DNA from: a virus
Lineage: Duplodnaviria > Heunggongvirae > Uroviricota > Caudoviricetes
Direction: 5' to 3' (one strand)
IMG/VR virus record: IMGVR_UViG_2872180393_000002
Length of the DNA stretch: 17,175 bases
Shown piece after piece: positions 1,388 through 17,175 of the stretch. Both the position numbers and the translations under genes were made by a program. Each line of letters begins with the position of its first letter. Within the stretch, counting starts at the first letter, position 1. The notes below the pieces were generated by a model that saw only the letters and a list, made by a program, of their open reading frames with translations, made no database searches and had not been told where the DNA came from.

Positions 1388-1411
1388 ATGGAGTGCCCAT
1401 AGAATCTCCCG

Positions 1412-2757: not shown

Positions 2758-2944
2758 AGAATTGAGTTGCATTGCAAATTATGAAATGATTTACGGCAAC
2801 AGTAGTCACCATGCTGTTAACCTCGTAAGCAAAAGCCCGATAAGCTTCCTCCTGTACTTATCGTAAGCGCCCCATCAGCGACGTCTTGTGAAAATTGTCC
2901 TGTCTGGCAACAATCGCGCCCATCTATATTGATGGACACGAACG

Positions 2945-3619
2945 ATGAATTCCCAGACAACAAAAGATATTCCCTGCTTCCGTTCTTATTTGCCTGATGC
3001 CCTGCGTTTAAGATTTGAAGATAAACTGACCATCCGGGCCATCGCTCAGCGTCTGGGTCTCAGTCATTCCACAATACATACGCTTTTTCAGCGATTTCTT
3101 GCATCCGGTATCGCATGGCCATTGCCCGATTCAGTTTCATTCGCTCAACTTGACGCCATCCTTTATGCCAACAGAAAGAAGGAATTAACAGAGCCTCAAA
3201 TCAGAGAAGGCTCATGGCGAAAAGAACGGCGAACCAGCTATAGCCGTGAATTTAAGGTCCGTCTGGCTAAGCAGGCGTTACAGCCTGGGGCTGTTGTTGC
3301 CCGGATCGCCAGAGAACACGATATCAATGATAACCTGCTGTTTAAATGGAAAAGCCAGTACGAGGACGGCTTACTGAGCGATGATGACATACAGGAATGC
3401 ATGCCTGTCCCGGTGGCACTGACTGATACGCCGGAGCCGACCAGACCAGTTACAAATCCCTTCTGGCGTAACAAGCATGATGAGCGCCCTGAGGGGGCTC
3501 CCGGAAACGTCCCACGGTGCGAGCTGCATCTTAAATCAGGTGTGGTAAAACTGTTTGACCCTCTCACTCCGGAACTGTTACGGGCGCTAATCCGCGAAAT
3601 GAAAGGGGGTATCCGATGA
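2945..3619 (+). CDS. IS66-family TnpA (helix-turn-helix accessory protein), 224 aa
   Basis: First ORF of the IS66 unit, with an IS66 orf1-like HTH region (SYSREFKVRLAKQAL..ARIAREHDINDNLLFKWKSQY). ATGA overlap with tnpB. Confidence 0.8.
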   Translation: MNSQTTKDIPCFRSYLPDALRLRFEDKLTIRAIAQRLGLSHSTIHTLFQRFLASGIAWPLPDSVSFAQLDAILYANRKKELTEPQIREGSWRKERRTSYSREFKVRLAKQALQPGAVVARIAREHDINDNLLFKWKSQYEDGLLSDDDIQECMPVPVALTDTPEPTRPVTNPFWRNKHDERPEGAPGNVPRCELHLKSGVVKLFDPLTPELLRALIREMKGGIR

Positions 3620-3963
3620 TAACGCTGCCGACCGGTACCAAAATCTGGATCATCGCTGGCATCACAGATATGCGTTGTGGCTTCAATGGCCTGGCTTCGA
3701 AGGTGCAGAACACGCTGAAAGATGACCCGTTCTCCGGGCATATCTTCGTCTTCCGGGGCCGCAGTGGCAAAATGGTGAAAATACTGTGGGCCGATCGTGA
3801 CGGGTTATGCCTGTTCGCCAAACGCCTGGAACGGGGCCGCTTCGTCTGGCCGGTGACCCGGGAAGGGAAAGTGCACCTGACGCCAGCTCAGTTATCCATG
3901 CTACTGGAGGGGATCGCGTGGCAACATCCAAAACGGACAGAACGGCCTGGCATCCGGATATAA
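3616..3963 (+). CDS. IS66-family TnpB (orf2), 115 aa
   Basis: Characteristic IS66 orf2 sequence (MRCGFNGLA..FVFRGRSGKMVKILWADRDGLCLFAKRLE). Confidence 0.9.
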   Translation: MITLPTGTKIWIIAGITDMRCGFNGLASKVQNTLKDDPFSGHIFVFRGRSGKMVKILWADRDGLCLFAKRLERGRFVWPVTREGKVHLTPAQLSMLLEGIAWQHPKRTERPGIRI

Positions 3964-3982
3964 CCCGTGATAAAACAAGGGA

Positions 3983-5584
3983 ATGAACAATGAACTCCCC
4001 GATGATATTGAGCTGCTTAAAGCCATGTTGCGTAAGCAACAGAGTCGGCTTCGACAGTATGCCTGTCAGGTCGCGGGCTATGAGCAGGAAATTGAACGGC
4101 TGAAAGCGCAACTCGACAGGTTGCGTCGTATGTTGTTCGGCCAGAGTTCAGAGAAAAAGCGTCATAAGCTTGAAAATCAGATCCGACAGGCAGAAAAACG
4201 ACTGTCGGAACTGGAAAACCGGCTGAACACAGCCAGAAATCTTCTGGAAGATGCATCGTCAGTCACAGATTCACCTGACACCAGTCCCCCGTCAGAAAAC
4301 CCGATCGCCAGTAAGCCTGAATCCCCGGGACGAAAATCTTCACGAAAACCGCTGCCGGCAGAACTTCCCCGGGAGACACATCGCCTTCTGCCTGCTGAAA
4401 CCAGTTGCCCGGCCTGTGGAGGTGTTCTGAAAGAAATGGGGGAAACAATCTCAGAGCAACTGGATATCATTAATACCGCCTTTAAAGTTATCGAAACCAT
4501 ACGTCCCAAACTGGCCTGTAGCCGGTGTGATGTCATCGTTCAGGCACCACTTCCCCCTAAACCGATCGAACGCGGTTATGCCAGTGCAGAGTTACTTGCA
4601 CGGATCCTGGTCAGCAAATATATGGAACATATCCCTTTATATCGCCAGTCAGAAATATACGCGCGACAGGGCGTGGAGCTGAGCCGTAATACCATGGTGC
4701 GCTGGGTATCAGAAATGGCAGACAAACTCCGTCCTCTGTATATAGCGCTGAATGACTATGTTCTGGAGGCAGGAAAGGTGCACGCAGATGACACTCCGGT
4801 GAAAGTACTGGCCCCGGGGAACGGAAAGACGAAAACGGGTCGTCTGTGGGTATACGTCAGGGATGATCGTAATGCGGGTTCATCCCTGCCGGCAGCCGTC
4901 TGGTTCGCGTATTCGGCAGATCGCAAAGGAGAACATCCGCAGCGCCACCTGGCAAAGTATCAGGGCGTACTGCAGGCTGATGCCTATGCAGGTTATAACG
5001 TACTGTACGAAACGGGCCGGGTGAAGGAAGCCGGGTGCCAGGCCCACGCCCGCCGAAAAATCCATGACGAGGATGTGCGCCGTCCGACAGAAATGACTCA
5101 GGAAGCGCTCAGACGGATAGCAGAGTTATACGACATAGAAGCGGAGATACGTGGCAGTCCGGCAGAGGAACGGCTTGCAGTCAGAAAAGCCAGAAGCGTC
5201 CAGTTGATGCAGTCGTTGTACGACTGGATACAGTTGCAGAGGAAAACGCTGTCGAAACATGCGGAGATGGCGAAGGCGTTCGACTATATCCTGAATCACT
5301 GGAATGCGCTGAACGAGTTCTGTCGTGACGGCTGGGTGGAAATAGACAACAACATCGGTGAAAACGCGTTACGATCGGTGGCGGTTGGAAGAAAAAATTA
5401 TCTCTTTTTCGGCTCAGACAAGGGAGGAGAAAGTGCGGCGATCATCTACAGTCTGCAGGTCACCTGCAAACAGAACGAAGTGGAGCCGGAGGACTGGTTG
5501 CGCGAAGTGATCGAGAAGCTCAATGACTGGCCGTCGAACCAAGTGCATGAACTGCTGCCCTGGAACTTCTCGTCTGTAAAATAA
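3983..5584 (+). CDS. IS66-family transposase TnpC (DDE), 533 aa
   Basis: N-terminal leucine zipper, CxxC..CxxC zinc finger, and a DDE core typical of IS66 TnpC. Confidence 0.9.
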
Positions 5585-5641
5585 TCCTTACGCTACGTAC
5601 TTCTCGGGGCGCTTACTACTTATCGGGCTTTTTTTGGGTAC

Positions 5642-5671: not shown

Positions 5672-6054
5672 TCAGAACGGAATATCATCACCGTAGGGGT
5701 CATCGTCTCCCGCTGGTGGCTGATTACCCTGTGTGCCTGTGGTTTTGCGTCTGTTCCCGCCAGGGCGTGCCGCTCGGGCACTGATTACGCTGTCGGCAAT
5801 AACCTGATAACCCTGCCGCGTTTCCCCGTTCTGTCCGGTCCACTGGCTGACCTGCATCGTGCCGGATACGCTGGCAACGTCGCCTTTTTGATGTTTAGCC
5901 AGGAAGTCGGCCTGCTTACCAAATGCCATCACCGATAGCCATAACGTCGCCTGTCCGTCCTGTGCCTGGCTGCATGGCAGCGATACCGCCATACGCGCCA
6001 GCGTCATCGGTGTGCCCTTGCTGGTCTGTTTTACCTGCGGGTCGTCCACCAACC
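5672..6054 (-). pseudogene. ssb: single-stranded DNA-binding protein, C-terminal 128 codons; gene interrupted by IS600-like copy A
   Basis: OB-fold core resembling E. coli SSB (W..V..FGK.A...KG...W) and the canonical acidic tail DDDPYGDDIPF. The N-terminus of the 143-aa ORF in the track is read through from the IS end. Confidence 0.8.
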
Positions 6055-6118
6055 TGAGGTAGCCTGAGTTTAACGGACACTCCTTCCTGAAATAGAATGG
6101 CATCAGAAGGAGCTAATA

Positions 6119-6421
6119 ATGAGCAGAAAAACCCAACGTTACTCTAAAGAGTTCAAAGCCGAAGCTGTCAGAACGGTTCTTGAAAATCAACTTTCGATCA
6201 GTGAAGGCGCTTCCCGATTATCCCTTCCTGAAGGCACTTTAGGACAATGGGTTACCGCCGCCAGAAAAGGGCTCGGTACTCCTGGTTCCCGCACGGTGGC
6301 TGAACTGGAATCTGAAATTCTGCAACTGCGTAAGGCGTTAAATGAAGCTCGCCTTGAGCGAGATATATTAAAAAAAGCAACAGCGTATTTTGCACAGGAG
6401 TCGCTGAAAAATACGCGTTAA
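6119..6421 (+). CDS. IS3-family OrfA (HTH), IS600-like
   Basis: 100-aa ORF with an IS3-type HTH and leucine zipper, identical in all three copies. Confidence 0.9.
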   Translation: MSRKTQRYSKEFKAEAVRTVLENQLSISEGASRLSLPEGTLGQWVTAARKGLGTPGSRTVAELESEILQLRKALNEARLERDILKKATAYFAQESLKNTR

Positions 6422-6456
6422 TCGAACAATGGCGACAACAATTTCCCATTGAAGCG

Positions 6457-7275
6457 ATGTGTCAGGTATTTGGTGTATCCAGGAGCGGTTATTACAACTG
6501 GGTACAGCATGAACCCTCAGACAGAAAACAAAGTGATGAGCGGCTAAAACTGGAGATTAAGGTGGCACATATCCGCACTCGCGAAACATATGGAACCCGG
6601 CGGCTCCAGACGGAGCTGGCAGAGAATGGCATCATCGTTGGTCGTGACCGACTGGCACGTCTTCGTAAGGAGCTAAGGCTACGCTGTAAGCAGAAACGCA
6701 AGTTCAGAGCGACTACGAACCCGAACCACAATCTGCCAGTTGCGCCAAATCTGCTGAACCAGACGTTCGCTCCTACAGCACCAAATCAGGTCTGGGTGGC
6801 GGACCTGACGTATGTTGCCACACAGGAGGGATGGTTGTACCTAGCTGGCATCAAAGATGTTTATACGTGCGAAATTGTCGGCTACGCCATGGGAGAGCGC
6901 ATGACAAAAGAGCTGACAGGTAAAGCCCTGTTTATGGCGCTCAGGAGCCAGCGCCCACCTGCCGGGCTAATCCACCACTCTGATCGAGGTTCACAGTACT
7001 GCGCATACGATTACCGGGTCATACAGGAGCAGTTTGGTCTGAAAACATCAATGTCGCGTAAAGGTAACTGTTACGACAACGCTCCGATGGAAAGCTTCTG
7101 GGGAACGCTGAAAAATGAGAGCCTGAGCCACTATCGTTTTAATAACCGGGATGAAGACATCTCAGTAATACGGGAATACATTGAGATTTTCTACAATCGT
7201 CAGCGTCGTCACTCTCGTCTGGGGAATATCTCCCCGGCAGCCTTCAGGGAAAAATATCATCATATGGCTGCTTAA
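6457..7275 (+). CDS. IS3-family OrfB (DDE integrase-type transposase catalytic domain); expressed as an OrfAB fusion by -1 frameshifting
   Basis: DDE / rve-type motifs (WVADLTY..., HHSDRGSQY..., NAPMESFWGTLKNE). The frame is open upstream of the first ATG back to the slippery site. Confidence 0.9.
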   Translation: MCQVFGVSRSGYYNWVQHEPSDRKQSDERLKLEIKVAHIRTRETYGTRRLQTELAENGIIVGRDRLARLRKELRLRCKQKRKFRATTNPNHNLPVAPNLLNQTFAPTAPNQVWVADLTYVATQEGWLYLAGIKDVYTCEIVGYAMGERMTKELTGKALFMALRSQRPPAGLIHHSDRGSQYCAYDYRVIQEQFGLKTSMSRKGNCYDNAPMESFWGTLKNESLSHYRFNNRDEDISVIREYIEIFYNRQRRHSRLGNISPAAFREKYHHMAA

Positions 7276-7318
7276 AAAAAGAACAAATGGTAGTGTCCGC
7301 TATTGCCAGTACACCTCA

Positions 7319-7349
7319 ACCGTCCGTAAGCTGCTATCTGTGCTGTCAT
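7319..7349 (-). pseudogene. ssb: ssb N-terminal fragment (first 10 codons, MTAQIAAYGR), separated from the rest by IS600-like copy A
   Basis: ATG at 7347-7349 with a GAGGTGG RBS. Removing the IS and one copy of the ACC duplication restores one continuous SSB frame. Confidence 0.7.
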
Positions 7350-7544
7350 GATTCCACCTCTCCGGTTTTAACGTTGATGGTTGTTACCTGTTCCGCTTCG
7401 GCAATCTCCCGTTCTGTCAGCGTGGCAAAGTTTGCCGCTGCTGTGGTCATGAATGCGCTTATCAGGTCGGGATGTTCCTTCGCGTATCCTTCCCCGCGTG
7501 GCGGTCTATCGTTCTGATTGCCACCTTTAAAGCGTGCTCTGTCA
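7346..7544 (-). other. two candidate micro-ORFs (7461-7544, 27 codons; 7346-7450, 34 codons) upstream of ssb, the second overlapping the ssb start in an ATGA arrangement
   Basis: Open frames only. Ribosome-binding sites are weak and no family is recognisable. Confidence 0.2.
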
Positions 7545-7671
7545 TGTCTAACGCGCGATATTTCGGTTCTGTTCTGTCTCTGCGTTTTTTGAGTGATTTA
7601 TTAAATTTTCCTGAAGTGTGCATGTTTATTTTTACCCCCTCGTTTAAAAAGTTTTGAGTTGTGCCTCCCCT

Positions 7672-7887
7672 TGTCTACCTTATCTACCTTGCTGGCCCTC
7701 ATGCCAGTAATGGCGCGGCTTTCAGCGGGGTAGAGTGCTTTTATCCACTATCTACCCCGTGTCTACCTCCCTGTCTGATTCAGGTAAAATCAGGTAGAGA
7801 GGGTAGATAGTGGGTAGACAGTAAAAAAAGCTGTCTACCTAACTTAATGTACTGAATTAAATGTATTTTCCTTTGCTCAGGTAGACA
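7672..7887. repeat. iteron array, putative replication origin: 8-bp motif TGTCTACC / TATCTACC in both orientations, with a flanking AT-rich region
   Basis: Direct copies at 7672, 7681, 7749, 7760 and 7832. Inverted copies (GGTAGACA / GGTAGATA / GGTAGAG) at 7728, 7793, 7802, 7813 and 7880. The array lies immediately 3' of the primase-helicase gene. Confidence 0.6.
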
Positions 7888-7901
7888 GCAATTACAAAAA
7901 A

Positions 7902-8246
7902 TTATAAAAACGCGTCGCACTCGTCTGTTGTTATTGCGTTAGTCTGCGTTACCCCCTTAACTTTCCGCGTAATATATTCATGTCCGTAAACTTTTGCGGC
8001 AGGCTTCATAGCCTTGCCAAAGTCATTTACGTTTAGCGGTTTGCTCCTGCCTGCGTATGCCATAAACGCCAGATAGACGCGGTAAAGGCTGTTCCTGGTC
8101 GTGTACTTCACTGAATCACCACCGCCACCCATCATCAGGCCGCGCGCTTCCTCCAGAAAATTCAGGAACTGGCAAAACTCAATAACCGGATCCGTCTGTT
8201 GCTTTATTGCCAGTGCTTCATCACCGTCACGCTGTTCCAGTAGTAA
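7902..8246 (-). pseudogene. primase-helicase C-terminal fragment (about 115 codons, candidate origin-binding domain), cut off by IS600-like copy B
   Basis: Removing the IS and one TAA duplication joins this frame (LLLEQRDGDEALAIKQ...TTDECDAFL) in phase to the ORF at 9511-10923. Confidence 0.7.
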
Positions 8247-8289
8247 TGAGGTGTACTGGCAATAGCGGACACTACCATTTGTTCTTTTT

Positions 8290-9108
8290 TTAAGCAGCCA
8301 TCTGATGATATTTTTCCCTGAAGGCTGCCGGGGAGATATTCCCCAGACGAGAGTGACGACGCTGACGATTGTAGAAAATCTCAATGTATTCCCGTATTAC
8401 TGAGATGGCTTCATCCCGGTTATTAAAACGATAGTGGCTCAGGCTCTCATTTTTCAGCGTTCCCCAGAAGCTTTCCATCGGAGCGTTGTCGTAACAGTTA
8501 CCTTTACGCGACATTGATGTTTTCAGACCAAACTGCTCCTGTATGACCCGGTAATCGTATGCGCAGTACTGTGAACCTCGATCAGAGTGGTGGATTAGCC
8601 CGGCAGGTGGGCGCTGGCTCCTGAGCGCCATAAACAGGGCTTTACCTGTCAGCTCTTTTGTCATGCGCTCTCCCATGGCGTAGCCGACAATTTCGCACGT
8701 ATAAACATCTTTGATGCCAGCTAGGTACAACCATCCCTCCTGTGTGGCAACATACGTCAGGTCCGCCACCCAGACCTGATTTGGTGCTGTAGGAGCGAAC
8801 GTCTGGTTCAGCAGATTTGGCGCAACTGGCAGATTGTGGTTCGGGTTCGTAGTCGCTCTGAACTTGCGTTTCTGCTTACAGCGTAGCCTTAGCTCCTTAC
8901 GAAGACGTGCCAGTCGGTCACGACCAACGATGATGCCATTCTCTGCCAGCTCCGTCTGGAGCCGCCGGGTTCCATATGTTTCGCGAGTGCGGATATGTGC
9001 CACCTTAATCTCCAGTTTTAGCCGCTCATCACTTTGTTTTCTGTCTGAGGGTTCATGCTGTACCCGGTTGTAATAACCGCTCCTGGATACACCAAATACC
9101 TGACACAT
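8290..9108 (-). CDS. IS3-family OrfB (DDE), copy B
   Basis: Matches copy A except for point differences (W to R near the N-terminus, D to A, H to Q near the C-terminus). Confidence 0.9.
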   Translation of the reverse strand: MCQVFGVSRSGYYNRVQHEPSDRKQSDERLKLEIKVAHIRTRETYGTRRLQTELAENGIIVGRDRLARLRKELRLRCKQKRKFRATTNPNHNLPVAPNLLNQTFAPTAPNQVWVADLTYVATQEGWLYLAGIKDVYTCEIVGYAMGERMTKELTGKALFMALRSQRPPAGLIHHSDRGSQYCAYDYRVIQEQFGLKTSMSRKGNCYDNAPMESFWGTLKNESLSHYRFNNRDEAISVIREYIEIFYNRQRRHSRLGNISPAAFREKYHQMAA

Positions 9109-9143
9109 CGCTTCAATGGGAAATTGTTGTCGCCATTGTTCGA

Positions 9144-9446
9144 TTAACGCGTATTTTTCAGCGACTCCTGTGCAAAATACGCTGTTGCTTTTTTTAATAT
9201 ATCTCGCTCAAGGCGAGCTTCATTTAACGCCTTACGCAGTTGCAGAATTTCAGATTCCAGTTCAGCCACCGTGCGGGAACCAGGAGTACCGAGCCCTTTT
9301 CTGGCGGCGGTAACCCATTGTCCTAAAGTGCCTTCAGGAAGGGATAATCGGGAAGCGCCTTCACTGATCGAAAGTTGATTTTCAAGAACCGTTCTGACAG
9401 CTTCGGCTTTGAACTCTTTAGAGTAACGTTGGGTTTTTCTGCTCAT
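9144..9446 (-). CDS. IS3-family OrfA, copy B
   Basis: Identical to OrfA of copy A. Confidence 0.9.
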   Translation of the reverse strand: MSRKTQRYSKEFKAEAVRTVLENQLSISEGASRLSLPEGTLGQWVTAARKGLGTPGSRTVAELESEILQLRKALNEARLERDILKKATAYFAQESLKNTR

Positions 9447-9507
9447 TATTAGCTCCTTCTGATGCCATTCTATTTCAGGAAGGAGTGTCCGTTAAACTCA
9501 GGCTACC

Positions 9508-10923
9508 TCATAAAGCCCGTGCCTTCTCAGGGTCGGTAAAGTTCGCCAGCAATCGGCGGATAATAACGGGGATTTCAGCCGCAATCTTTTCCGGTAGCTC
9601 CCTGTCTTTTTCGGCCTCACTGACGATATTGTCGAAACGGAAAATCACGCGACGACGTGCCACACCTCCGGCCCGTTCGGTGAATATCATCGGGTTGTTG
9701 TCGGTCGCCAGCACCACCGCCCTGATTACCGCCGTGAAACGCTTTTCATATTTCGGGTTAATTTCCACGGGGTCGCCGCCCGTGATTTTCTTGATGCCCG
9801 TTCCTTCGCCTGTATATTTCGGCTGGTCAGCCAGGACGATAAGACGACTCCCGACAACCTGCGCACGTCCACCAGCATCATCAAGCGATGTCATTTCAGC
9901 GCTTACCGTGTTCTGTTTCCCTGCCAGAAGGCTGGCTATGTGTGTGAATGTACTTTTACCGCTCCCGCCGTCTCCGGTGGCCTCAATAAACATCTGCCAG
10001 TCGTACCGGTTCGCCATAATCATGTAAAGCGCGGCACATATGCGCATCATCTTGCGCGGGTCTTTTCCGGCTGCGTGATCAAGCCATTTATGAAAGTTTG
10101 GCGCGTTGTCGCGGATATTCTCCCCTGGTGCTGGTGGCGTGTACTCAATGCCGTTGTGCGTGGTGATCCAGTTCTCCGGCGTGTGCGGGGAAAATTCCCC
10201 CGTTTTCAGGTTAAGCACACCATTAGTGAACGGTAGCAAATCACTGGACGGCTCGCCCATCGGGTCAGCAATAACTTTTAACGCTTCAACGGCGTTATTA
10301 ATTGCCCGCTTGCTGAATGTGGCCCCGTGTTCTGAATAAACCGCCACCATTTCGCGGCTCAGTTCCATTGTGCTGACCGGACACCATATCCCGCCGCGCC
10401 ATACGTGAACGATTTCACTTTCCGGATGCACACAAACGCCATCAAATCGACCAGCAAGCATCTGTGCGCGCTCACTGTCTGCCATCTGCGAAAGTTGCGC
10501 CTTTTGCTTTACCGGAAGCTCAATGACCAGACCATCAGAAAGATTCTGGCGTTCACGGGCCAGATATTCGCGCCAGTTCTGCACCTCCTGGCCGTGCATA
10601 CCCTCAAGATAAAAATTTGCATCCTGTACACCTGCCGCCGCCAGCTTCTGACCAATCGCCTTGATCATTACAGGCTCAAGATGTCCGGCTCTGTATATGC
10701 GTGCTGATTTTCTGCCATCCGGCACAATTTGCAGATTATCCAGTTCGGATAGCTGCTGCTCTCCAAGCCACACAGGAGGCTCATTATCTCCGGCTGTACG
10801 CGCGTCATGTTCCTGCCACTGTTTCGCGTGTGCCCAGGCATCACTACCCGCAAAGATAATTACCTCTGTGTCTTTGTGTTTTATTCCGCGTGGCTGTTTT
10901 TTTACGTTCGGTGCCAGTTTCAT
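9508..10923 (-). pseudogene. replication protein: N-terminal primase-associated region, D5_N-like region and SF3 (P4-alpha / D5-type) helicase with Walker A GDGGSGKST; truncated, with its stop codon supplied by the IS end
   Basis: Walker A and downstream SF3 motifs. The stop TGA is the complement of the terminal TCA of the IS at 9508-9510. Confidence 0.8.
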
Positions 10924-11057
10924 TTTTTACCCCTGAATACGTTAAGCATCTTTTTTATTTCCTGAATATTGGCGCGTGCTTTCTCCCTGCTGGTGGGCAC
11001 GTTACGCGGTACGGCCTGCACAAGAGAAAAATCACGGTCGAACTGATAAACAGGCAT
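10920..11057 (-). CDS. hypothetical 45-aa protein, translationally coupled to the primase-helicase (ATGA overlap)
   Basis: Open frame MPVYQFDRDF...; its stop overlaps the primase ATG. Below the ORF track's length cutoff. Confidence 0.3.
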   Translation of the reverse strand: MPVYQFDRDFSLVQAVPRNVPTSREKARANIQEIKKMLNVFRGKK

Positions 11058-11069
11058 CACGCAATCATA

Positions 11070-11219
11070 TTAGTAGCCTTCACGACGGTAGGTTACGCGC
11101 CGTTCCTCCACGCCCTTAATTATTACCGTGCCGCCGTACTTATCGCGGTAAATATCCCCGCGCATGAATTTAGTGCGAGTTTTGCCGCTGGCAGTTAAGC
11201 CAGGATATTTAAGTTTCAT
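11070..11219 (-). CDS. hypothetical 49-aa basic protein
   Basis: Open frame MKLKYPGLTASGKTRTKF... with a GGAG RBS. Sits in the operon between the 77-aa gene and the primase. Confidence 0.3.
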   Translation of the reverse strand: MKLKYPGLTASGKTRTKFMRGDIYRDKYGGTVIIKGVEERRVTYRREGY

Positions 11220-11224
11220 TATTT

Positions 11225-11458
11225 TTATTCTCCGGTGTGGGGCGCTTTATACTGGTCGTGTAATGTCTCTATTTCCTGCAACTCATTTATTACAGGCTCA
11301 AGAAGCGTTATTAATGCCGTGACAATCCTTGATTTCTGTTTATCACGCTCATTATCGCCAAATGTTTCCAGACACATTTGCAATATTTCCAACATATTTT
11401 CACTGTGAGAAAGTGCAAGAAATGCGCGGTCTGTTATTTCAATGTAAATATCACGCAT
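11225..11458 (-). CDS. hypothetical acidic 77-aa protein, first gene of the replication operon
   Basis: Bounded ORF with an upstream in-frame stop at 11471-11473 and a GGGG RBS. No family recognised. Confidence 0.45.
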   Translation of the reverse strand: MRDIYIEITDRAFLALSHSENMLEILQMCLETFGDNERDKQKSRIVTALITLLEPVINELQEIETLHDQYKAPHTGE

Positions 11459-11495
11459 AACCCCGTTACTTTATTCGTACCTCTTATAATGGGGT

Positions 11496-11691
11496 GTTAG
11501 CCAGCCAGACCCGGCATGATTACTGCCCCCAGTCGTCCATGATCCGGGGGGTGATGTCACCGGGTCTGGTGGGGCGCTGGTAACCGCTAATAGGGGTCAG
11601 GTCAGGCACTTTTGCCGGGACCGTCTGTAACGTGGATGCCGGTACCTGCTCCCCGTGGTTATCTGGTTAACCCATATACAAGGGAGACAGA
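11496..11691 (+). ncRNA. candidate IS110-type guide (bridge) RNA in the non-coding left end
   Basis: About 200 nt of structured non-coding DNA 5' of the recombinase gene, with a 10-bp stem CCAGACCCGG (11505-11514) / CCGGGTCTGG (11560-11569) and internal repeats. Based on position and structure only. Confidence 0.3.
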
Positions 11692-12915
11692 ATGACCGAA
11701 TCCAGCGATTACGAATCCGTCCAGGTCTTTATCGGCGTTGATGTCGGTAAAGATACGCATCACGCTGTTGCCATTAATCGTTCAGGTAAACGCCTGTTCG
11801 ATAAAGCATTACCCAACGACGAAAACAAACTCAGGTCGCTAATATCTGACCTGAAACAACATGGTCAGATACTTCTGGTTGTTGATCAGCCAGCTACCAT
11901 CGGTGCGTTACCTGTCGCCGTTGCCCGCTCAGAAGGAGTCCTTGTCGGATACCTCCCTGGACTGGCCATGCGCCGCATAGCCGACTTACACGCCGGTGAA
12001 GCTAAAACTGATGCTCGTGACGCTGCCATCATTGCCGAAGCTGCCCGTACCCTGCCTCACGCGCTACGCACGCTGAAACTGGCTGACGAGCAAATCGCCG
12101 AACTCTCCATGCTCTGCGGCTTCGATGATGATCTTGCCGCACAGACAACGCAGGCCAGCAACCGTATCCGCGGCCTTCTGACCCAGATACATCCGGCACT
12201 GGAGCGCGTTCTCGGTCCGAGACTTGAGCACCCGGCGGTACTCGATCTTCTCCAGCGATATCCCTCACCAGAAAAACTCGCTTCGCTGGGTGAGAAGAAG
12301 CTGGCAGCCCAGCTCTGCAAACTTGCGCCTCGTCTGGGTAAACGCCTTGCAGCAGACATAGCTCAGGCACTGGCCGAACAAACCGTCGTCGTTCCCGGCA
12401 CGAATGCCGCTGCCGTAGTACTGCCACGTCTGGCACTCCAGCTCATCACGCTGCGTAAGCAAAGAGACGAGGTGGCGCTTGAGGTAGAACAGCGAGTTCT
12501 TGCTCACCCTCTTTACCCGGTCCTGACCAGTATGCCCGGAGTCGGTGTCAGGACCGCAGCCAGACTCCTCACCGAGGTCGCCTGCCGCGCCTTCGCCTCT
12601 GCCGCACATCTCGCTGCTTATGCTGGCCTTGCGCCGGTAACTCGGCGATCCGGCTCGTCAATACGCGGTGAGCATCCCTCGCGACGGGGTAATAAAGCTC
12701 TCAAACGGGCGTTGTTCCTGTCGGCCTTCGCCGCGCTCAGGGATCCGCTCTCCAGGGCTTACTACACCCGCAAAATGAGTCAGGGAAAACGACACAATCA
12801 GGCGCTTATCGCCCTGGCGAATACGGGCCGCGAATACAGCAACACAACCGGACGGGCAATGGTTACGCGCTTCGCGTTCAGTCCAGGCGGTGACGTGGAT
12901 GATTTGGGACTCTGA
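11692..12915 (+). CDS. IS110-family recombinase/transposase (N-terminal DEDD RuvC-like domain, C-terminal Tnp domain), 407 aa
   Basis: N-terminal IGVDVGKDTHH motif, helix-hairpin-helix MPGVGVRTAARLL, and C-terminal RRSGSSIRGEH..ALKRALFLSAF serine motif. AGGGAG RBS. Confidence 0.9.
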   Translation: MTESSDYESVQVFIGVDVGKDTHHAVAINRSGKRLFDKALPNDENKLRSLISDLKQHGQILLVVDQPATIGALPVAVARSEGVLVGYLPGLAMRRIADLHAGEAKTDARDAAIIAEAARTLPHALRTLKLADEQIAELSMLCGFDDDLAAQTTQASNRIRGLLTQIHPALERVLGPRLEHPAVLDLLQRYPSPEKLASLGEKKLAAQLCKLAPRLGKRLAADIAQALAEQTVVVPGTNAAAVVLPRLALQLITLRKQRDEVALEVEQRVLAHPLYPVLTSMPGVGVRTAARLLTEVACRAFASAAHLAAYAGLAPVTRRSGSSIRGEHPSRRGNKALKRALFLSAFAALRDPLSRAYYTRKMSQGKRHNQALIALANTGREYSNTTGRAMVTRFAFSPGGDVDDLGL

Positions 12916-13149
12916 CGCACCAAAGGCGATAAAGCGCCAGAGAAAGGCGGTTTGAGAATGTACAAGGGTAGGGGTAGTAGCCATGTCGGCAGCCTCCTTG
13001 ATTGATGGAATGTAACCACCGCCGGAGGTCCTAAGCTCGCTGGCGGTGGACTGTACAGGGTTAGGACTACTGGCAATCAAGGGAACCAGCCTACCCGAAG
13101 GTAGCCCCATACAGCCCACCATTGTATAGGTGTGCGTGTGCGTCGATAC

Positions 13150-13171
13150 AAAAAAAGACGCGTGCGGCGTC
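13150..13171 (-). terminator. candidate rho-independent terminator on the minus strand inside a roughly 500-bp non-coding, structured region
   Basis: Hairpin GACGC-gtgcg-GCGTC at 13157-13171, preceded on the plus strand by A7 (13150-13156), which is a U7 tail on the minus strand. Confidence 0.3.
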
Positions 13172-13432
13172 TGTATCGCCTCGATTGTCAGCGGGGTCCT
13201 AATCCCGGCACCCGTTTTATAAGGTGCACGCGAATCATAGCCTTGGCTGGCAGTGGCGATCAACTGGTTTTTCATACCCGCTTTATTCAGGTTGTGCGAG
13301 TCCCGCCCTTGCAGGTGTGTGGTATGATTTAACATAGCTACCTCGATACTGTTGCTATCGTTGGTGGTTAGACGCCCTGCATGTGTTGCGAGCACTGCGG
13401 GGCGTTGCTTAATTTGAGTGACAAAACTCAAA

Positions 13433-13512
13433 CTGCGCGCACAGATTAAAATCATGTGTGCGCACATGTCAATACTTAACATCTCATTTTTTTTGCTGTA
13501 TTGTGTGCGCCC
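13433..13512. promoter_or_regulatory. cluster of TGTGCGCAC-type palindromic operator-like sites upstream of the 65-aa gene
   Basis: CTGCGCGCACAG at 13433-13444, near-palindrome CATGTGTGCGCACATG at 13453-13468, and TTGTGTGCGCCC at 13501-13512. Confidence 0.4.
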
Positions 13513-13540
13513 ATAAAGTCCATTTAAGTGAGGTGCATCA

Positions 13541-13738
13541 ATGTCTAGCGGTAACACAAACAACAAATCAGCAAAGAAAAATATTCGATTCCCACATGAG
13601 CTTATAGATGGGGTTTATGCCAGCGTTGAACAAGAAAAATTAACTAATCCTAGTGCTAATTTTTCCGCATGGGTCTTAGATGCCTGTGGACGCAAATTAA
13701 AATATGAACAGCGCCGGAAGGCCAAAGAATCAGAATAA
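13541..13738 (+). CDS. small 65-aa DNA-binding-like protein (ribbon-helix-helix-like pattern); candidate regulator
   Basis: GTGAGG RBS 7 nt upstream. The pattern KNIRFPHELIDGV followed by two predicted helices resembles RHH regulators. Assigned by eye only. Confidence 0.45.
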   Translation: MSSGNTNNKSAKKNIRFPHELIDGVYASVEQEKLTNPSANFSAWVLDACGRKLKYEQRRKAKESE

Positions 13739-13762
13739 TCACTATCAGCGCCGTGGCGTGAG

Positions 13763-13975
13763 GTGCTACGGCGCATTGCTTTACAGGTACACACAATGAC
13801 CAACAAAGAATCAACCAATACACCATCGCAAAAAACGAACAGAGAGCACGAAAATATGGCGCTCGAGCATGAATCAGAAAGATTCGCACCATGTGCTTTT
13901 GCCCTTGAGCAATTCCTTAAAGAGTACAGGGAAACGCGCTCATTGCAGGTATGGCAACGAACTGAACCAGCCTGA
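13763..13975 (+). CDS. hypothetical protein of 59-70 aa (likely start MTNKES..)
   Basis: Open frame downstream of the 65-aa gene, convergent with alpA. No family recognised. Confidence 0.3.
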   Translation: MLRRIALQVHTMTNKESTNTPSQKTNREHENMALEHESERFAPCAFALEQFLKEYRETRSLQVWQRTEPA

Positions 13976-14048
13976 TAGCGTCTATCATCCCCGTGCTTAT
14001 GTTTGGGATCACATACACATAAGGCGCAGCGGGTTAATTGTTCAGAAA

Positions 14049-14076
14049 GGCGGCTCCATATCGGGGCCGCTTTTTT
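14049..14076 (+). terminator. weak candidate terminator for the plus-strand small genes
   Basis: 5-bp stem GCGGC/GCCGC around an 11-nt loop, followed by T6 (14071-14076). Confidence 0.25.
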
Positions 14077-14102
14077 CGTGTTTGTCATATCTGTGATACC
14101 CG

Positions 14103-14309
14103 TTAAGCAGCCGTTCCGCGTGCTTCCTGTTCGCGTTCTTTCTGCCAGGCCAACACATCATCCTCATACCATCCGCGACGGCGTAAACCAACGCGAAAAC
14201 CCTGCGGAAATTCTCCGGCGTTGATCATGCTTTGCAGCGTGCTGTCTGCCTTGATGTGGATAATTTTTTTTACTTCCTGGCGAAAGATAATTTTTCTGAT
14301 TGCTTCCAT
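14103..14309 (-). CDS. alpA: AlpA-family transcriptional regulator / excisionase-like protein (68 aa)
   Basis: Size, position next to a P4-type integrase, and the motif pattern (IHIKADSTLQSMINAGEFPQGFRVGLRRRGWYEDDVLAWQ) typical of the phage AlpA DNA-binding domain. Confidence 0.75.
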   Translation of the reverse strand: MEAIRKIIFRQEVKKIIHIKADSTLQSMINAGEFPQGFRVGLRRRGWYEDDVLAWQKEREQEARGTAA

Positions 14310-14421
14310 CGTGATTTACCTTGTGAATCCGGTGTATTCCGGTGACAAATACGGTAAATCATCGGATATGGGTAAAAACAGTTCCCACCGTTTTTATATT
14401 GATGATTTGAAATGGAATTAT

Positions 14422-14444
14422 AAAAAAAGCGGCATTTCTGCCGC
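14422..14444 (-). terminator. rho-independent terminator between the 83-aa ORF and alpA
   Basis: Hairpin GCGGCA-tttc-TGCCGC at 14429-14444, preceded on the plus strand by A7 (14422-14428), which is a U7 tail on the minus strand. Confidence 0.6.
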
Positions 14445-14455
14445 TTCCAGGATTG

Positions 14456-14707
14456 TTACCGCCATTTTTGGGGCCTGCCTCCGATCTTCATAGATGCCGG
14501 ACGTACGACCTTATCAATACTTACCGCCAGATTTCTGGAAGCGCCACGGGATACCAGAAAATCTACTACCTGTTTTTTTGATGGGGCCGTCGTTCTGTCC
14601 TCCGGATCGTAGGTTGACCAAAATTCATGCTGAACCATCAGGGCCAGTTGCAGCCCGTCGCAATTGCATCTGATATTTTTTTGCATCTTAACGGTTTCAT
14701 GTTTCAC
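14456..14707 (-). CDS. hypothetical 83-aa protein between int and alpA
   Basis: Open frame ended by the terminator above. No family recognised. Confidence 0.35.
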   Translation of the reverse strand: MKHETVKMQKNIRCNCDGLQLALMVQHEFWSTYDPEDRTTAPSKKQVVDFLVSRGASRNLAVSIDKVVRPASMKIGGRPQKWR

Positions 14708-14784
14708 GGCCTTGTCGTTAAATTTGATGCAATTATACGATGGTTTTACATGGTTTTCGTAGTTTTTACTGGTTTTCTGTACAG

Positions 14785-15552
14785 CTACACGGCTCGGATA
14801 CCCCTTTTACCACTGGCGAGGGTTACGCCCGTCGCCGCAGCCTCGACAAATTCGCCCCACCAGCGCATCAGCACGATGCGTTTTTCTATGTAGTTGCTCC
14901 GGTTGTATGCCCGTCTAACTTCGTTGGTGTCGACGTGGGCAAGTGCCGCCTCTATTACGTCCGGCTCGAATCCTTCCTCGTTCGCTGCTGTGCTGAATAT
15001 GGCGCGTAATCCATGAGACACCAGCACGCCAGCGAATCCCATACGCTGCAATGCTGCGTTAGCGGTCTGGCTGTTCATCGGCTGCTGTGGGTCTTTCAGA
15101 CTTGGGAAAACGTAATTGCGGTGGTGGCTGATTGGTTTCATGGCCTCCAGCACCGCCATAGCCTGACCGGAAAGCGGGATAACGTGATCCCTGCGCATCT
15201 TCATGCGTCCTGCAGGTATCGTCCATTGCTTCGCGTCCAGGTTGATTTCATCCCACCGCGTTGATGACGCTTCGGCGGGACGGGTTACGGTCAGTAACTG
15301 CCATTCAATCAGTAATCTGGTCTGCCGTTCTGTTGCCGATACTGATAAAGCCTGCATAAGCTCCGGCAGCTGTTCGGGGCGGATTGTTGGCATATGTTTT
15401 TTTACAGGTGAGGGAAACGCCTTACGCACATTCATAGCCGGATTGGCATCAATCAGCCCACTGTTGGCGGCGTAATCCATTACCTCATTAACGCGCTGTA
15501 AAACCCGCTTGAGTGTTTCCAGGTTGCCGCGCTCCTTGATGGGTGTAAGCAC
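14785..15552 (-). pseudogene. int: tyrosine integrase (P4-type), C-terminal catalytic part; gene interrupted by IS600-like copy C
   Basis: Catalytic-domain motifs HGLRAIFST (H-x-x-R) and RAYNRSNY (tyrosine nucleophile). The 5' end abuts the IS at 15552/15553. Confidence 0.85.
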
Positions 15553-15616
15553 TGAGGTAGCCTGAGTTTAACGGACACTCCTTCCTGAAATAGAATGGCA
15601 TCAGAAGGAGCTAATA

Positions 15617-15919
15617 ATGAGCAGAAAAACCCAACGTTACTCTAAAGAGTTCAAAGCCGAAGCTGTCAGAACGGTTCTTGAAAATCAACTTTCGATCAGT
15701 GAAGGCGCTTCCCGATTATCCCTTCCTGAAGGCACTTTAGGACAATGGGTTACCGCCGCCAGAAAAGGGCTCGGTACTCCTGGTTCCCGCACGGTGGCTG
15801 AACTGGAATCTGAAATTCTGCAACTGCGTAAGGCGTTAAATGAAGCTCGCCTTGAGCGAGATATATTAAAAAAAGCAACAGCGTATTTTGCACAGGAGTC
15901 GCTGAAAAATACGCGTTAA
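15617..15919 (+). CDS. IS3-family OrfA, copy C
   Basis: Identical to OrfA of copies A and B. Confidence 0.9.
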   Translation: MSRKTQRYSKEFKAEAVRTVLENQLSISEGASRLSLPEGTLGQWVTAARKGLGTPGSRTVAELESEILQLRKALNEARLERDILKKATAYFAQESLKNTR

Positions 15920-15954
15920 TCGAACAATGGCGACAACAATTTCCCATTGAAGCG

Positions 15955-16815
15955 ATGTGTCAGGTATTTGGTGTATCCAGGAGCGGTTATTACAACTGGG
16001 TACAGCATGAACCCTCAGACAGAAAACAAAGTGATGAGCGGCTAAAACTGGAGATTAAGGTGGCACATATCCGCACTCGCGAAACATATGGAACCCGGCG
16101 GCTCCAGACGGAGCTGGCAGAGAATGGCATCATCGTTGGTCGTGACCGACTGGCACGTCTTCGTAAGGAGCTAAGGCTACGCTGTAAGCAGAAACGCAAG
16201 TTCAGAGCGACTACGAACCCGAACCACAATCTGCCAGTTGCGCCAAATCTGCTGAACCAGACGTTCGCTCCTACAGCACCAAATCAGGTCTGGGTGGCGG
16301 ACCTGACGTATGTTGCCACACAGGAGGGATGGTTGTACCTAGCTGGCATCAAAGATGTTTATACGTGCGAAATTGTCGGCTACGCCATGGGAGAGCGCAT
16401 GACAAAAGAGCTGACAGGTAAAGCCCTGTTTATGGCGCTCAGGAGCCAGCGCCCACCTGCCGGGCTAATCCACCACTCTGATCGAGGTTCACAGTACTGC
16501 GCATACGATTACCGGGTCATACAGGAGCAGTTTGGTCTGAAAACATCAATGTCGCGTAAAGGTAACTGTTACGACAACGCTCCGATGGAAAGCTTCTGGG
16601 GAACGCTGAAAAATGAGAGCCTGAGCCACTATCGTTTTAATAACCGGGATGAAGCCATCTCAGTAATACGGGAATACATTGAGATTTTCTACAATCGTCA
16701 GCGTCGTCACTCTCGTCTGGGGAATATCTCCCGGCAGCCTTCAGGGAAAAATATCATCAGATGGCTGCTTAAAAAAAGAACAAATGGTAGTGTCCGCTAT
16801 TGCCAGTACACCTCA
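15955..16815 (+). pseudogene. IS3-family OrfB, copy C, frameshifted about 14 codons before the normal stop by a 1-bp deletion; the frame reads out of the IS to 17175
   Basis: CTCCCGGCAG here versus CTCCCCGGCAG in copies A and B. The DDE core lies upstream of the lesion and is intact. Confidence 0.8.
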
Positions 16816-17175
16816 CACCTCAACGAACCTTCGGGTGGTGAGGGTATCTATTGGCGTGTTGCCGATGAACGGGAATACATATTTATCCAGCGAACGCCAG
16901 ATATCTTTAATCGTGTTGGGGGCCAGATTCTGGCTGATTTTCACCTGGTACCATGCCGCCGCCACATTTTCGACTTCGGGCCTCTGTCTCTCTTTTTTGC
17001 CTCTCGTGGTCCTGCGGGTCAGTTCCGGCACGAATTAACGCCCTGTACTCGCTACGGCGTTTTCTGGCATCAGCCAGGGAAACATCTTCAAGCGATCCAA
17101 AACTCAGCAATATTCTTTTTTTGTCCGATGGTCGGTAGTAGGAAAATCTCCAGAGTTTTGATCCAGACGGTTTGA
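16816..17175 (-). pseudogene. int: tyrosine integrase N-terminal part (partial at the window edge), with an internal frameshift near 16975-17005
   Basis: Two overlapping frames carry consecutive integrase N-terminal homology: ..GSKLWRFSY..SLEDVSLADARKRR..GTDPQDHER, then ..NVAAAWYQVK..YVFPFIGNTPIDTLT. They switch near a T6 run at 16993-16998. Confidence 0.75.

What the first reader, a model, noticed from the sequence alone, without database searches (positions are those of the whole stretch)
6055..16815. Three independent IS600-like insertions, each with an intact target duplication, hit ssb, the replication initiator and the integrase
The copies have different 3-bp duplications (ACC, TAA, CAC), so they are separate simple insertions, not products of recombination between copies. 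Each disrupts a different function needed for mobility or replication, while the capsid module is untouched apart from a frameshift. This may reflect IS expansion with relaxed selection, or selective immobilisation of the island.
Basis: seen in the sequence. Interest (0 to 1): 0.55.

Follow-up and report, generated by a model that had tools for sequence, protein, structure and literature searches.

The report
Three IS600 insertions in decaying satellite
Three copies of the common jumping gene IS600 have each landed separately in a small phage-satellite island of a Shigella chromosome, breaking its ssb, primase and integrase genes; this is real but is ordinary IS-driven decay of the kind already well documented in Shigella.

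Summary
There are three IS600 copies: 6055-7318 (+), 8247-9510 (-) and 15553-16815 (+, 1263 bp, one base deleted). Each is flanked by its own 3-bp duplication (ACC, TAA, CAC). Removing each copy in silico restores an SSB gene (136 aa), a P4/D5-type primase-helicase gene (584 aa) and a tyrosine integrase gene. IS-free orthologous islands in E. coli Nissle 1917 and AST198 have one uninterrupted sequence at each of the three sites.

The window is an exact piece of NCBI chromosome CP026846.1. Two of the junctions recur in independent short-read assemblies, one of them Shigella boydii CIP56-18.

The host element is an enterobacterial PICI-type phage satellite next to tRNA-Pro and yejM. It carries at least nine lesions:
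- the three IS600 copies;
- ISSfl3, with an 8-bp duplication;
- ISEc20, with about 0.8 kb of early genes missing beside it;
- a 32-bp deletion in the head-decoration gene;
- a 14-bp deletion that hits the integrase a second time;
- a 1-bp deletion in a small gene;
- a nonsense codon in the DUF4222 gene.

The orthologue's terS gene is also absent. This pattern fits neutral decay during the known Shigella IS expansion. It does not fit selective immobilisation. Interest is low and the phenomenon is already known.

The parts
6055..7318 (+). IS600 copy 1 (1264 bp), inserted about codon 10 of ssb and antisense to it. The 3-bp duplication ACC lies at 6052-6054 and 7319-7321. Private substitutions give OrfB A234D and Q269H.
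8247..9510 (-). IS600 copy 2 (1264 bp), inserted about codon 470 of the 584-codon primase gene, in the same orientation as the gene. The duplication TAA lies at 8244-8246 and 9511-9513. A private substitution gives OrfB W15R.
   Evidence: The junction is also present in Logan contig L004.
15553..16815 (+). IS600 copy 3 (1263 bp). A 1-bp deletion in a C run at IS position 1178 replaces the last 13 aa of OrfB and lets the ORF read out to 17175. It is inserted about codon 158 of the integrase, antisense to it. The duplication CAC lies at 15550-15552 and 16816-16818.
   Evidence: The junction is also present in Logan contig L007.
5672..7349 (-). ssb gene split by copy 1: the body is 5672-6054 and the first ~9 codons are 7322-7349. 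Restored, it gives a 136-aa protein with Pfam SSB E=4.8e-17.
7902..10923 (-). Primase-helicase (pri-rep) gene split by copy 2: the N-terminal 470 codons are 9514-10923 and the C-terminal 114 codons are 7902-8246. Restored, it gives 584 aa with D5_N, DUF5906 and Pox_D5 domains. It aligns 1-1755 in one piece to intact genes in 485 E. coli genomes.
14785..17175 (-). Tyrosine integrase gene split by copy 3: the C-terminal 255 codons are 14785-15552 and the N-terminal part is 16819-17175, with about 34 codons lying beyond the window end. It is also broken by a 14-bp deletion at 16973/16974.
2863..5616 (+). ISSfl3 (IS66 family; three ORFs at 2945-3619, 3616-3963 and 3983-5584). The 8-bp duplication TACTTATC lies at 2855-2862 and 5617-5624. 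It is intergenic, between the capsid operon and the ssb terminator.
11451..12820 (+). ISEc20 (IS110 family). Its left end abuts the start codon of the 77-aa gene at 11225-11458, and its right end abuts a 3'-truncated icd-like gene. About 0.8 kb of small early genes present in the orthologues is missing here.
1412..2467 (-). Lambda gpE-type major capsid (capsid-morphogenesis) gene with an intact 351-aa ORF, 89% identical to the Nissle orthologue without gaps.
1097..1400 (-). Lambda gpD-type head-decoration gene, inactivated by a 32-bp deletion at 1318/1319.
7346..7623 (-). Small gene (92 aa in the orthologues) upstream of ssb, frameshifted by a 1-bp deletion near 7495. The coordinates are approximate.
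10920..11219 (-). DUF4222 gene with a premature stop codon at 11070-11072 (codon 50 of 99).
14103..14309 (-). AlpA-type excisionase/regulator gene, intact and 100% identical in protein to the Nissle orthologue.
13039..13227 (-). Immunity-type RNA module: C4 antisense RNA (13039-13126) and isrK (13151-13227), upstream of the icd-like remnant.

Best explanation
The window is part of a roughly 10-kb phage satellite of the enterobacterial PICI type. Its genes are an integrase, an AlpA-like regulator, an isrK/C4/icd immunity module, a P4/D5-type primase-helicase, ssb, and lambda E/D-type capsid-morphogenesis genes. It is integrated beside tRNA-Pro(GGG) and yejM in a Shigella chromosome, most likely S. 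boydii or a close relative. During the IS expansion typical of Shigella, IS600 inserted three separate times into the island. IS600 is an IS3-family element that makes 3-bp target duplications; its copy-out-paste-in mechanism is stated from memory and was not tested here. One insertion is near the 5' end of ssb, one is at codon ~470 of the primase gene, and one is at codon ~158 of the integrase gene. ISSfl3 and ISEc20 also inserted, and small deletions and a nonsense mutation accumulated. The island is therefore a dead, immobile remnant decaying under relaxed selection, and the IS600 hits are neutral or nearly neutral events that drift retained. Shown here: the three insertions, their duplications, the empty sites, the identity of the broken genes, the extra lesions, and the presence of two junctions in other isolates. 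Inferred: that the pattern reflects drift rather than selection, and the order and age of the events.
For: Anatomy of the three copies and their duplications.
Restored ORFs and their families.
Empty sites and collinearity with two IS-free orthologues at tRNA-Pro/yejM.
The restored primase gene aligns end to end with intact genes in 485 E. coli genomes.
IS3-family features: terminal TG...CA inverted repeats, orfA/orfB in the -1 frame, an A7G slippery site, and 329.6 bits against the IS3 model (cut-off 160).
RefSeq names the same element 'IS600 family'.
Source and lineage: the window is an exact piece of CP026846.1. The copy 2 and copy 3 junctions are present in independent assemblies ERR200299 and ERR200301. 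ERR200299 is S. boydii CIP56-18 (PMC4374849).
Generalised decay: ISSfl3 with an 8-bp duplication; ISEc20 with missing neighbouring genes; a 32-bp, a 14-bp and a 1-bp deletion and a nonsense codon; no match to terS.
Background: Shigella chromosomes carry 229-373 IS, including 20-54 IS600 copies, and have at least 199 pseudogenes each (PMC7373316).
Each IS600 copy carries 1-2 private changes, all of which alter the transposase. These changes are rare or absent in the E. coli IS600 pool, which suggests the copies have sat in place for some time.
Against: Under a uniform random model, three IS600 copies in 9.2 kb of IS-free DNA are more than expected: 0.005-0.11 such windows per genome using the reference-genome copy numbers. 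Some regional enrichment therefore exists and is explained only by assumption, namely that retained insertions concentrate in dispensable DNA. The IS600 copy number and distribution in the source genome itself could not be measured. The organism name of CP026846.1 was not returned by any tool. The copy 1 junction was not seen in an independent assembly.
Confidence: 0.88

Rival explanations
1. Selective immobilisation or domestication. The host benefited from locking the satellite in place by knocking out integration, replication and ssb, while keeping a useful part such as the capsid-interference gene, the AlpA regulator and the C4/isrK immunity RNAs as an anti-phage module.
For: All three IS600 hits fall in life-cycle genes. 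The major capsid ORF, the AlpA-like gene and the C4/isrK RNAs are intact. Three IS600 copies in 9.2 kb exceed the uniform expectation.
Against: The integrase is hit twice, by the IS and by a 14-bp deletion; a redundant second hit is what neutral decay predicts. The decoration gene in the supposedly preserved capsid module has a 32-bp deletion, terS is absent, icd is truncated, and DUF4222 and a 92-aa gene are broken. Genes cover about 89% of the island, and int and pri are its two largest genes, so random insertions are expected to land there. An E. coli orthologue (AST198) has internal stops in its capsid and integrase genes without any IS, so these islands decay anyway.
Confidence: 0.05
2. 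A regional hot spot or local hopping. IS600 prefers this DNA (through sequence, structure or proximity to an existing copy), so that one founding copy seeded the other two nearby.
For: The clustering exceeds the uniform expectation. The copy 3 target reads CACCTCA, identical to the last 7 nt of the IS right end.
Against: No pair of copies is identical. Each has private changes relative to the canonical consensus, so there is no sign of a recent parent-daughter pair. The three targets share no motif, and their resemblance to the IS ends is not significant (joint P about 0.2; copy 3 alone P about 0.07). GC content is about 50%, so the region is not unusually AT-rich. Two unrelated IS families also landed here, which points to tolerance of insertions and not to an IS600-specific preference.
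Confidence: 0.06
3. The copies are rearrangement products or artefacts: a composite transposon formed by copies 1 and 2, recombination between IS copies, or a misassembly of repeats.
For: Copies 1 and 2 are inverted and only 928 bp apart. Repeats of 1.26 kb are a classic source of assembly error.
Against: Each copy has its own matching duplication, while the outer flanks of the copy 1/copy 2 pair differ (ACC versus TAA). The 928-bp segment and all other inter-IS DNA are collinear with the orthologues. Independent short-read contigs cross into IS600 at the copy 2 and copy 3 junctions.
Confidence: 0.01

Closest known systems
IS600 (IS3 family), the element expanded in all Shigella species and in some EIEC and STEC lineages
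   Same: The length is 1264 bp with TG...CA termini and imperfect terminal inverted repeats. OrfA (100 aa) and OrfB (272 aa) lie in the -1 frame with an A7G slippery site. The transposase is a DDE (rve) type and the target duplication is 3 bp. Tested segments are 98.7-100% identical to copies that RefSeq annotates as IS600.
   Different: Nothing essential differs. Copy 3 has a 1-bp deletion that alters the OrfB C-terminus, and copies 1 and 2 carry one or two private amino-acid changes.
IS-driven pseudogenisation and genome decay in Shigella (Hawkey et al. 2020, PMC7373316)
   Same: The same IS families (IS600 with others) are present at high density and inactivate dispensable genes. The insertions are shared within a lineage.
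   Different: This is one local example inside a phage satellite. That paper does not discuss prophages or satellites: its main text has no occurrence of 'prophage'.
Enterobacterial PICI satellites as defined by de Sousa et al. 2023 (PMC10085698), including the intact orthologue in E. coli Nissle 1917 at tRNA-Pro/yejM
   Same: The gene set and order match: int, AlpA-like regulator, primase-replicase, capsid-morphogenesis gene (Phage_cap_E) and, in the orthologue, terS. The chromosomal site is the same. Nucleotide identity to the Nissle island is about 88-96% over most aligned segments, and lower in the ssb and left-end pieces.
   Different: The copy in the window is dead. It has five IS, four point lesions, no terS, and several early genes missing.
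Capsid-forming PICIs (cf-PICIs), for example the ESDR8 island at tqsA
   Same: They share the early module (DUF4222, small genes, icd, YlcI, ssb, perC), and ISEc20 sits in that same module.
   Different: No HK97-type capsid, protease, portal, head-closure or terL genes are present in the window or its orthologues.

Membership tests
IS600 / IS3 family insertion sequence | A length of about 1.26 kb with terminal inverted repeats ending 5'-TG...CA-3' | tested here: met
   The copies are 1264, 1264 and 1263 bp. The ends read TGAGGT...ACCTCA, and IRL and IRR align at 6/6 terminal bases plus an internal GCGGACACT block.
IS600 / IS3 family insertion sequence | Two overlapping ORFs (orfA, orfB) with a programmed -1 frameshift site | tested here: met
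   orfA occupies IS positions 65-367 and orfB positions 403-1221 in the -1 frame. The orfB frame is open from position 304, and an A7G motif lies at 316. Frameshifting itself was not tested.
IS600 / IS3 family insertion sequence | DDE (rve) transposase scoring above the curated IS3 family cut-off | tested here: met
   NF033516 scores 329.6 bits for OrfB against a cut-off of 160. The source annotation lists the rve, HTH_21 and HTH_Tnp_1 domains.
IS600 / IS3 family insertion sequence | A 3-bp target-site duplication at simple insertions | tested here: met
   ACC, TAA and CAC flank the three copies. The orthologues have a single uninterrupted copy of each target sequence.
IS600 / IS3 family insertion sequence | Near-identity to the reference IS600 sequence | tested here: inconclusive
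   Tested segments are 98.7-100% identical to copies annotated 'IS3-like element IS600 family transposase' in RefSeq E. coli genomes. The ISfinder reference itself was not available for comparison.
Enterobacterial PICI (de Sousa et al. 2023 definition) | Integrase at one end, next to the attachment site | tested here: met
   Phage_integrase and Phage_int_M hits. tRNA-Pro(GGG) lies 322 bp beyond the window end. The gene is disrupted.
Enterobacterial PICI (de Sousa et al. 2023 definition) | Regulator of the AlpA, MerR or Stl type | tested here: inconclusive
   The 68-aa protein scores 17.6 bits against Phage_AlpA, below the cut-off of 21. Its PHROG hit is 'excisionase and transcriptional regulator', E=5.5e-7.
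Enterobacterial PICI (de Sousa et al. 2023 definition) | Primase-replicase gene | tested here: met
   D5_N, DUF5906 and Pox_D5 hits. The P4-family primase model scores 106.9 bits, just under its cut-off of 108.7. The gene is disrupted by IS600.
Enterobacterial PICI (de Sousa et al. 2023 definition) | Capsid-morphogenesis gene | tested here: met
   Phage_cap_E E=2.8e-48 with an intact 351-aa ORF.
Enterobacterial PICI (de Sousa et al. 2023 definition) | Small terminase gene | tested here: not met
   The terS of the Nissle orthologue has no match in the IS-free window. The region 288-577 is shorter than and different from the orthologue's. terS is present in the intact orthologue, so its absence here looks like loss or module replacement.
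Enterobacterial PICI (de Sousa et al. 2023 definition) | Induction and packaging by a helper phage | not testable with these tools
   This needs an experiment. With int, pri and ssb all broken, the copy in the window is not expected to respond.
Capsid-forming PICI (cf-PICI) | Own portal, protease, head-tail connector/adaptor and large terminase | tested here: not met
   None of these appears among the Pfam/PHROG hits of the window's ORFs or in the orthologues' annotation.
Composite transposon formed by IS600 copies 1 and 2 | One shared target duplication outside the pair, with foreign DNA between the copies | tested here: not met
   The outer flanks are ACC and TAA. Each copy has its own duplication, and the 928 bp between them is native island DNA collinear with the orthologues.

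The most novel reading that the evidence does not exclude
The remnant is not simply dead. After the IS hits locked it in the chromosome, the host may have kept the intact lambda-E-type capsid-morphogenesis gene, the AlpA-like regulator and the isrK/C4 immunity RNAs as a fixed anti-phage interference module. The IS600 insertions into int, pri and ssb would then have been favoured because they stop the island from excising or replicating at the host's expense.
Probability: 0.05. Interest if true: 0.5.

Novelty: already known. Interest (0 to 1): 0.12.

Why it matters
It matters little beyond annotation. The region is a clean worked example of how the Shigella IS expansion dismantles a phage satellite, with every insertion traceable to an empty site in E. 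coli relatives. The practical use is for annotation: the three broken genes should be called pseudogenes of ssb, a P4-type primase and an integrase, and the island should be scored as a non-functional PICI remnant in satellite surveys. The shared junctions could serve as lineage markers for this S. boydii-like clade. Had selection for immobilisation been supported, it would bear on how hosts domesticate satellites, but the evidence points the other way.

Tried and rejected
1. Naming the source organism. Searches of papers for CP026846 and for the assembly number found nothing. Neighbouring accessions CP026845 and CP026847 are not in the plasmid collection. The lineage was inferred only through ERR200299, which is S. 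boydii CIP56-18.

2. A scan of species-representative genomes for the exact primase/IS600 junction found nothing. Shigella genomes are probably not separate representatives in that collection.

3. IR-like target preference. The three targets were compared with the IS600 ends against 3000 random island positions. The result was not significant (joint P about 0.2), so IR-directed targeting is not claimed.

4. Local hopping. This was rejected as a positive claim because no two copies are identical and each carries private changes.

5. An AT-rich hot spot was rejected, since GC content is about 0.46-0.60 across the window.

6. The idea that ISEc20 occupies the same site in the window and in the ESDR8 island was rejected. 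The two sites are different paralogous start-codon contexts sharing the motif ATCACGCAT.

7. A search for the attachment-site repeat at the far end of the island within the fetched source contig found nothing of 12 nt or more. That end probably lies outside the fetched DNA.

8. One literature look-up for the IS600 duplication length did not give the number. The 3-bp duplication rests on the sequence itself.

9. One search returned nothing because of a file-path error and was repeated correctly.

Full report
**Observation**

Repeat finding shows three nearly identical 1.26-kb elements in the window. Reading their ends and comparing them base by base gives:
- copy 1 at 6055-7318, + strand, 1264 bp;
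- copy 2 at 8247-9510, - strand, 1264 bp;
- copy 3 at 15553-16815, + strand, 1263 bp.

All three begin with TGAGG and end with CCTCA. The three bases outside each end match within a copy and differ between copies:
- ACC at 6052-6054 and 7319-7321;
- TAA at 8244-8246 and 9511-9513;
- CAC at 15550-15552 and 16816-16818.

The chance that three independent trinucleotide pairs match is 3.8e-6.

**What the copies are**

The consensus of the three copies has the standard IS3-family layout:
- imperfect terminal inverted repeats;
- orfA of 100 aa at IS positions 65-367;
- orfB of 272 aa at positions 403-1221, in the -1 frame;
- an A7G slippery motif at position 316, inside the overlap.

OrfB scores 329.6 bits against NCBI's IS3-family model, whose cut-off is 160. 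RefSeq annotates the matching elements in E. coli genomes as 'IS3-like element IS600 family transposase'. From my own knowledge of ISfinder, not checked here, IS600 is 1264 bp and makes 3-bp duplications, which agrees with the sequence.

The copies are not identical:
- copy 1 has two private substitutions (OrfB A234D and Q269H);
- copy 2 has one (W15R);
- copy 3 has lost one C from a C run at position 1178. This replaces the last 13 residues of OrfB and lets the frame run out of the element to the window end.

Segments carrying the copy 1 changes find no better than 98.7% identity at full coverage among about 6100 IS600 places in E. coli genomes. The copy 3 deletion is matched exactly in only two records. 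The three-copy consensus is thus the canonical sequence, and each copy carries its own later or rare changes.

**What they interrupt**

Removing each IS plus one copy of its duplication yields a 13,375-bp sequence. In it, one long ORF crosses each of the three junctions:
- a 136-aa protein with Pfam SSB, E=4.8e-17;
- a 584-aa protein with D5_N, DUF5906 and Pox_D5, and the P4-family primase model at 106.9 bits against a cut-off of 108.7;
- an integrase of at least 326 aa with Phage_integrase and Phage_int_M.

The insertions lie at about codon 10 of ssb, codon 470 of the primase gene and codon 158 of the integrase gene. The restored primase gene aligns from base 1 to base 1755, in a single piece, with intact genes in 485 complete E. 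coli genomes. The best identity is 95.6%.

**Empty sites**

A search of complete E. coli genomes found IS-free orthologous islands at about 92% identity. I fetched two of them, from Nissle 1917 (L001) and AST198 (L002). In both, the window's left and right flanks of each IS600 copy meet on one uninterrupted sequence and overlap by exactly the duplicated bases. At the ssb site the orthologues read GCC where the window has ACC on both sides. That is a substitution in the island lineage and not a mismatch between the flanks.

All DNA between the copies is collinear with the orthologues. Recombination between the inverted copies 1 and 2 or between the direct copies 1 and 3 has therefore not occurred. 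The pair formed by copies 1 and 2 is not a composite transposon.

**Source and independence from assembly**

The truncated primase product created by copy 2 occurs on NCBI chromosome CP026846.1 (4.86 Mb). The window is an exact reverse-complement piece of that record.

Short-read contigs from other samples cover two of the junctions:
- L004 (ERR200299) covers window 9483-11490 at 99.95% identity. It runs 28 nt into IS600 copy 2 and 40 nt into ISEc20.
- L007 (ERR200301) covers window 13941-15579 at 100% identity and runs 27 nt into copy 3.

ERR200299 is Shigella boydii CIP56-18, serotype 11, according to PMC4374849. The insertions are therefore real and inherited within a lineage, and that lineage is S. 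boydii or very close to it. The organism name of CP026846.1 itself was not returned by any tool. The copy 1 junction was found only in the complete genome. This is expected, because its marker ORF extends 49 nt into the IS, further than short-read contigs reach.

**The host element**

In the orthologues the island lies between yejO and tRNA-Pro/yejM. Its genes are an integrase, an HTH regulator, icd-like genes, small genes, DUF4222, a P4-family primase, ssb, a major capsid protein, a head-decoration protein and, in Nissle, a small terminase. In the source contig, tRNA-Pro(GGG) lies 322 bp beyond the window end.

Scans of the window found the following:
- a lambda gpE-type capsid gene (Phage_cap_E, E=2.8e-48);
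- a gpD-type decoration gene (HDPD);
- a 137-aa protein resembling the C-terminal part of head-maturation proteases;
- an AlpA-like regulator (below the Pfam cut-off, supported by PHROGs);
- a YlcI/DUF3950 gene;
- two Rfam RNAs, C4 antisense RNA (13039-13126) and isrK (13151-13227).

This gene set matches the five-component definition of enterobacterial PICIs in de Sousa et al. 2023: integrase, regulator, primase-replicase, capsid morphogenesis and small terminase. It does not match cf-PICIs, which need a portal, a protease, connectors and terL, and it does not match P4-like satellites.

**Other damage**

The three IS600 copies are only part of the damage.
- ISSfl3 (IS66 family) occupies 2863-5616 and has a clean 8-bp duplication, TACTTATC.
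- ISEc20 (IS110 family) occupies about 11451-12820. Its left end abuts the start codon of a 77-aa gene and its right end abuts an icd gene that lacks its last codons. About 0.8 kb of small early genes present in the orthologues is missing between those points.

Compared with both orthologues:
- the decoration gene has a 32-bp deletion at 1318/1319;
- a 92-aa gene has a 1-bp deletion near 7495;
- DUF4222 has a stop at codon 50 (11070-11072);
- the integrase has a 14-bp deletion at 16973/16974, in addition to its IS600.

The Nissle terS has no match in the window. That makes at least nine disruptive lesions in about 9.2 kb of island DNA.

**Is the clustering surprising?**

Hawkey et al. report 20-54 IS600 copies and 229-373 IS in total per Shigella reference chromosome (PMC7373316). 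I applied a uniform Poisson model to 9,244 bp of IS-free DNA:
- three or more IS600 copies are expected in 0.005-0.11 windows per genome;
- five or more IS of any kind are expected in 0.06-0.63 windows per genome.

The IS600 cluster is thus nominally enriched, while the total IS load is not remarkable. A uniform model is too strict, because surviving insertions concentrate in dispensable DNA such as dead mobile elements. I could not measure this in the source genome.

Three alternative causes of clustering found little or no support. The targets share no motif, and their resemblance to the IS ends is not significant. The region is not AT-rich. No two copies are identical, as a recent local hop would predict.

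**Selection or drift**

Genes cover about 89% of the orthologous island (sum of CDS lengths). Integrase, primase and ssb make up about 36% of the IS-free window. Insertions into such genes are therefore expected.

The redundant second hit in the integrase, the deletion in the decoration gene, the broken small genes and the loss of early genes are the signature of neutral decay. They are not what targeted immobilisation with a preserved useful part would look like. The AST198 orthologue has internal stops in both its capsid and integrase genes without any IS, so these islands decay in E. coli too.

I put neutral decay during the Shigella IS expansion at about 0.88. I give selective immobilisation about 0.05 and an IS600-specific hot spot or local hopping about 0.06.

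**Novelty and verdict**

IS600, its expansion in Shigella, IS-driven pseudogenisation and PICI satellites are all well described. The copies are already annotated in the public record. The finding is a correct and tidy observation of an ordinary phenomenon. Interest is low, at 0.12.

Noticed in passing
window 11451-12820; L008 9294-10664: ISEc20 (IS110 family; NCBIfam calls it an 'RNA-guided transposase') sits in the early module of two different satellites. In both it lies immediately after the motif ATCACGCAT, which contains the start codon of two different paralogous small genes. This looks like sequence-directed insertion into a motif repeated in these satellites. In the window about 0.8 kb of neighbouring genes and the 3' end of icd are missing next to it.
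   Followed up: partly
window 16809-16822: The target of IS600 copy 3 reads CACCTCA, identical to the last 7 nt of the IS, so the junction is a tandem CACCTCA-CACCTCA. In a general any-offset test P is about 0.07.
   Followed up: partly
window 2863-5616: There is a complete ISSfl3 (IS66 family, three ORFs) with an 8-bp duplication TACTTATC, inserted between the capsid operon and the ssb terminator. The perC-like gene present at this place in orthologue AST198 is absent from the window.
   Followed up: partly
window 13039-13227 (- strand): Rfam finds a C4 antisense RNA (78.6 bits) and isrK (64 bits) side by side upstream of the icd-like remnant. This P1/P7-type immunity RNA module inside a PICI-type satellite appears intact.
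   Followed up: no
window 1318/1319, ~7495, 11070-11072, 16973/16974: Four lesions unrelated to IS are seen relative to both orthologues: a 32-bp deletion in the gpD-type decoration gene, a 1-bp deletion in a 92-aa gene, a nonsense codon in DUF4222, and a 14-bp deletion in the integrase N-terminal region.
   Followed up: yes
window 15955-17175 (+ strand): The 1-bp deletion in IS600 copy 3 removes the orfB stop, giving a 406-aa ORF that reads out of the IS antisense through the integrase remnant, with its stop codon at the last three bases of the window. It is called as a gene in the public annotation.
   Followed up: yes
window 644-667, 5642-5665, 14423-14446: Three similar GC-rich hairpins flanked by an A run (T run on the - strand), of the form AAAAAAGCCGGATTTCTCCGGCCT, lie just downstream of minus-strand genes. 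They look like intrinsic terminators of the island's operons.
   Followed up: no
window 672-1085 (- strand): The 137-aa protein downstream of the decoration gene matches the C-terminal part of head-maturation proteases (phrog_53, positions 474-566 of 583). It may be a scaffold-like piece of the satellite's capsid-remodelling module.
   Followed up: no
window 288-577; L001 5093-6001: The small terminase gene of the Nissle orthologue is absent. The window has about 290 bp where Nissle has about 900 bp, and AST198 has a different 144-aa gene there. This end of the island is a variable module.
   Followed up: partly
L008 (E. coli ESDR8, NZ_CM169472.1) 6021-8328 and 9294-10664: A cf-PICI-type island at tqsA carries both ISSso4 (IS21 family) and ISEc20, showing that IS accumulation in these satellites is not limited to Shigella.
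   Followed up: no
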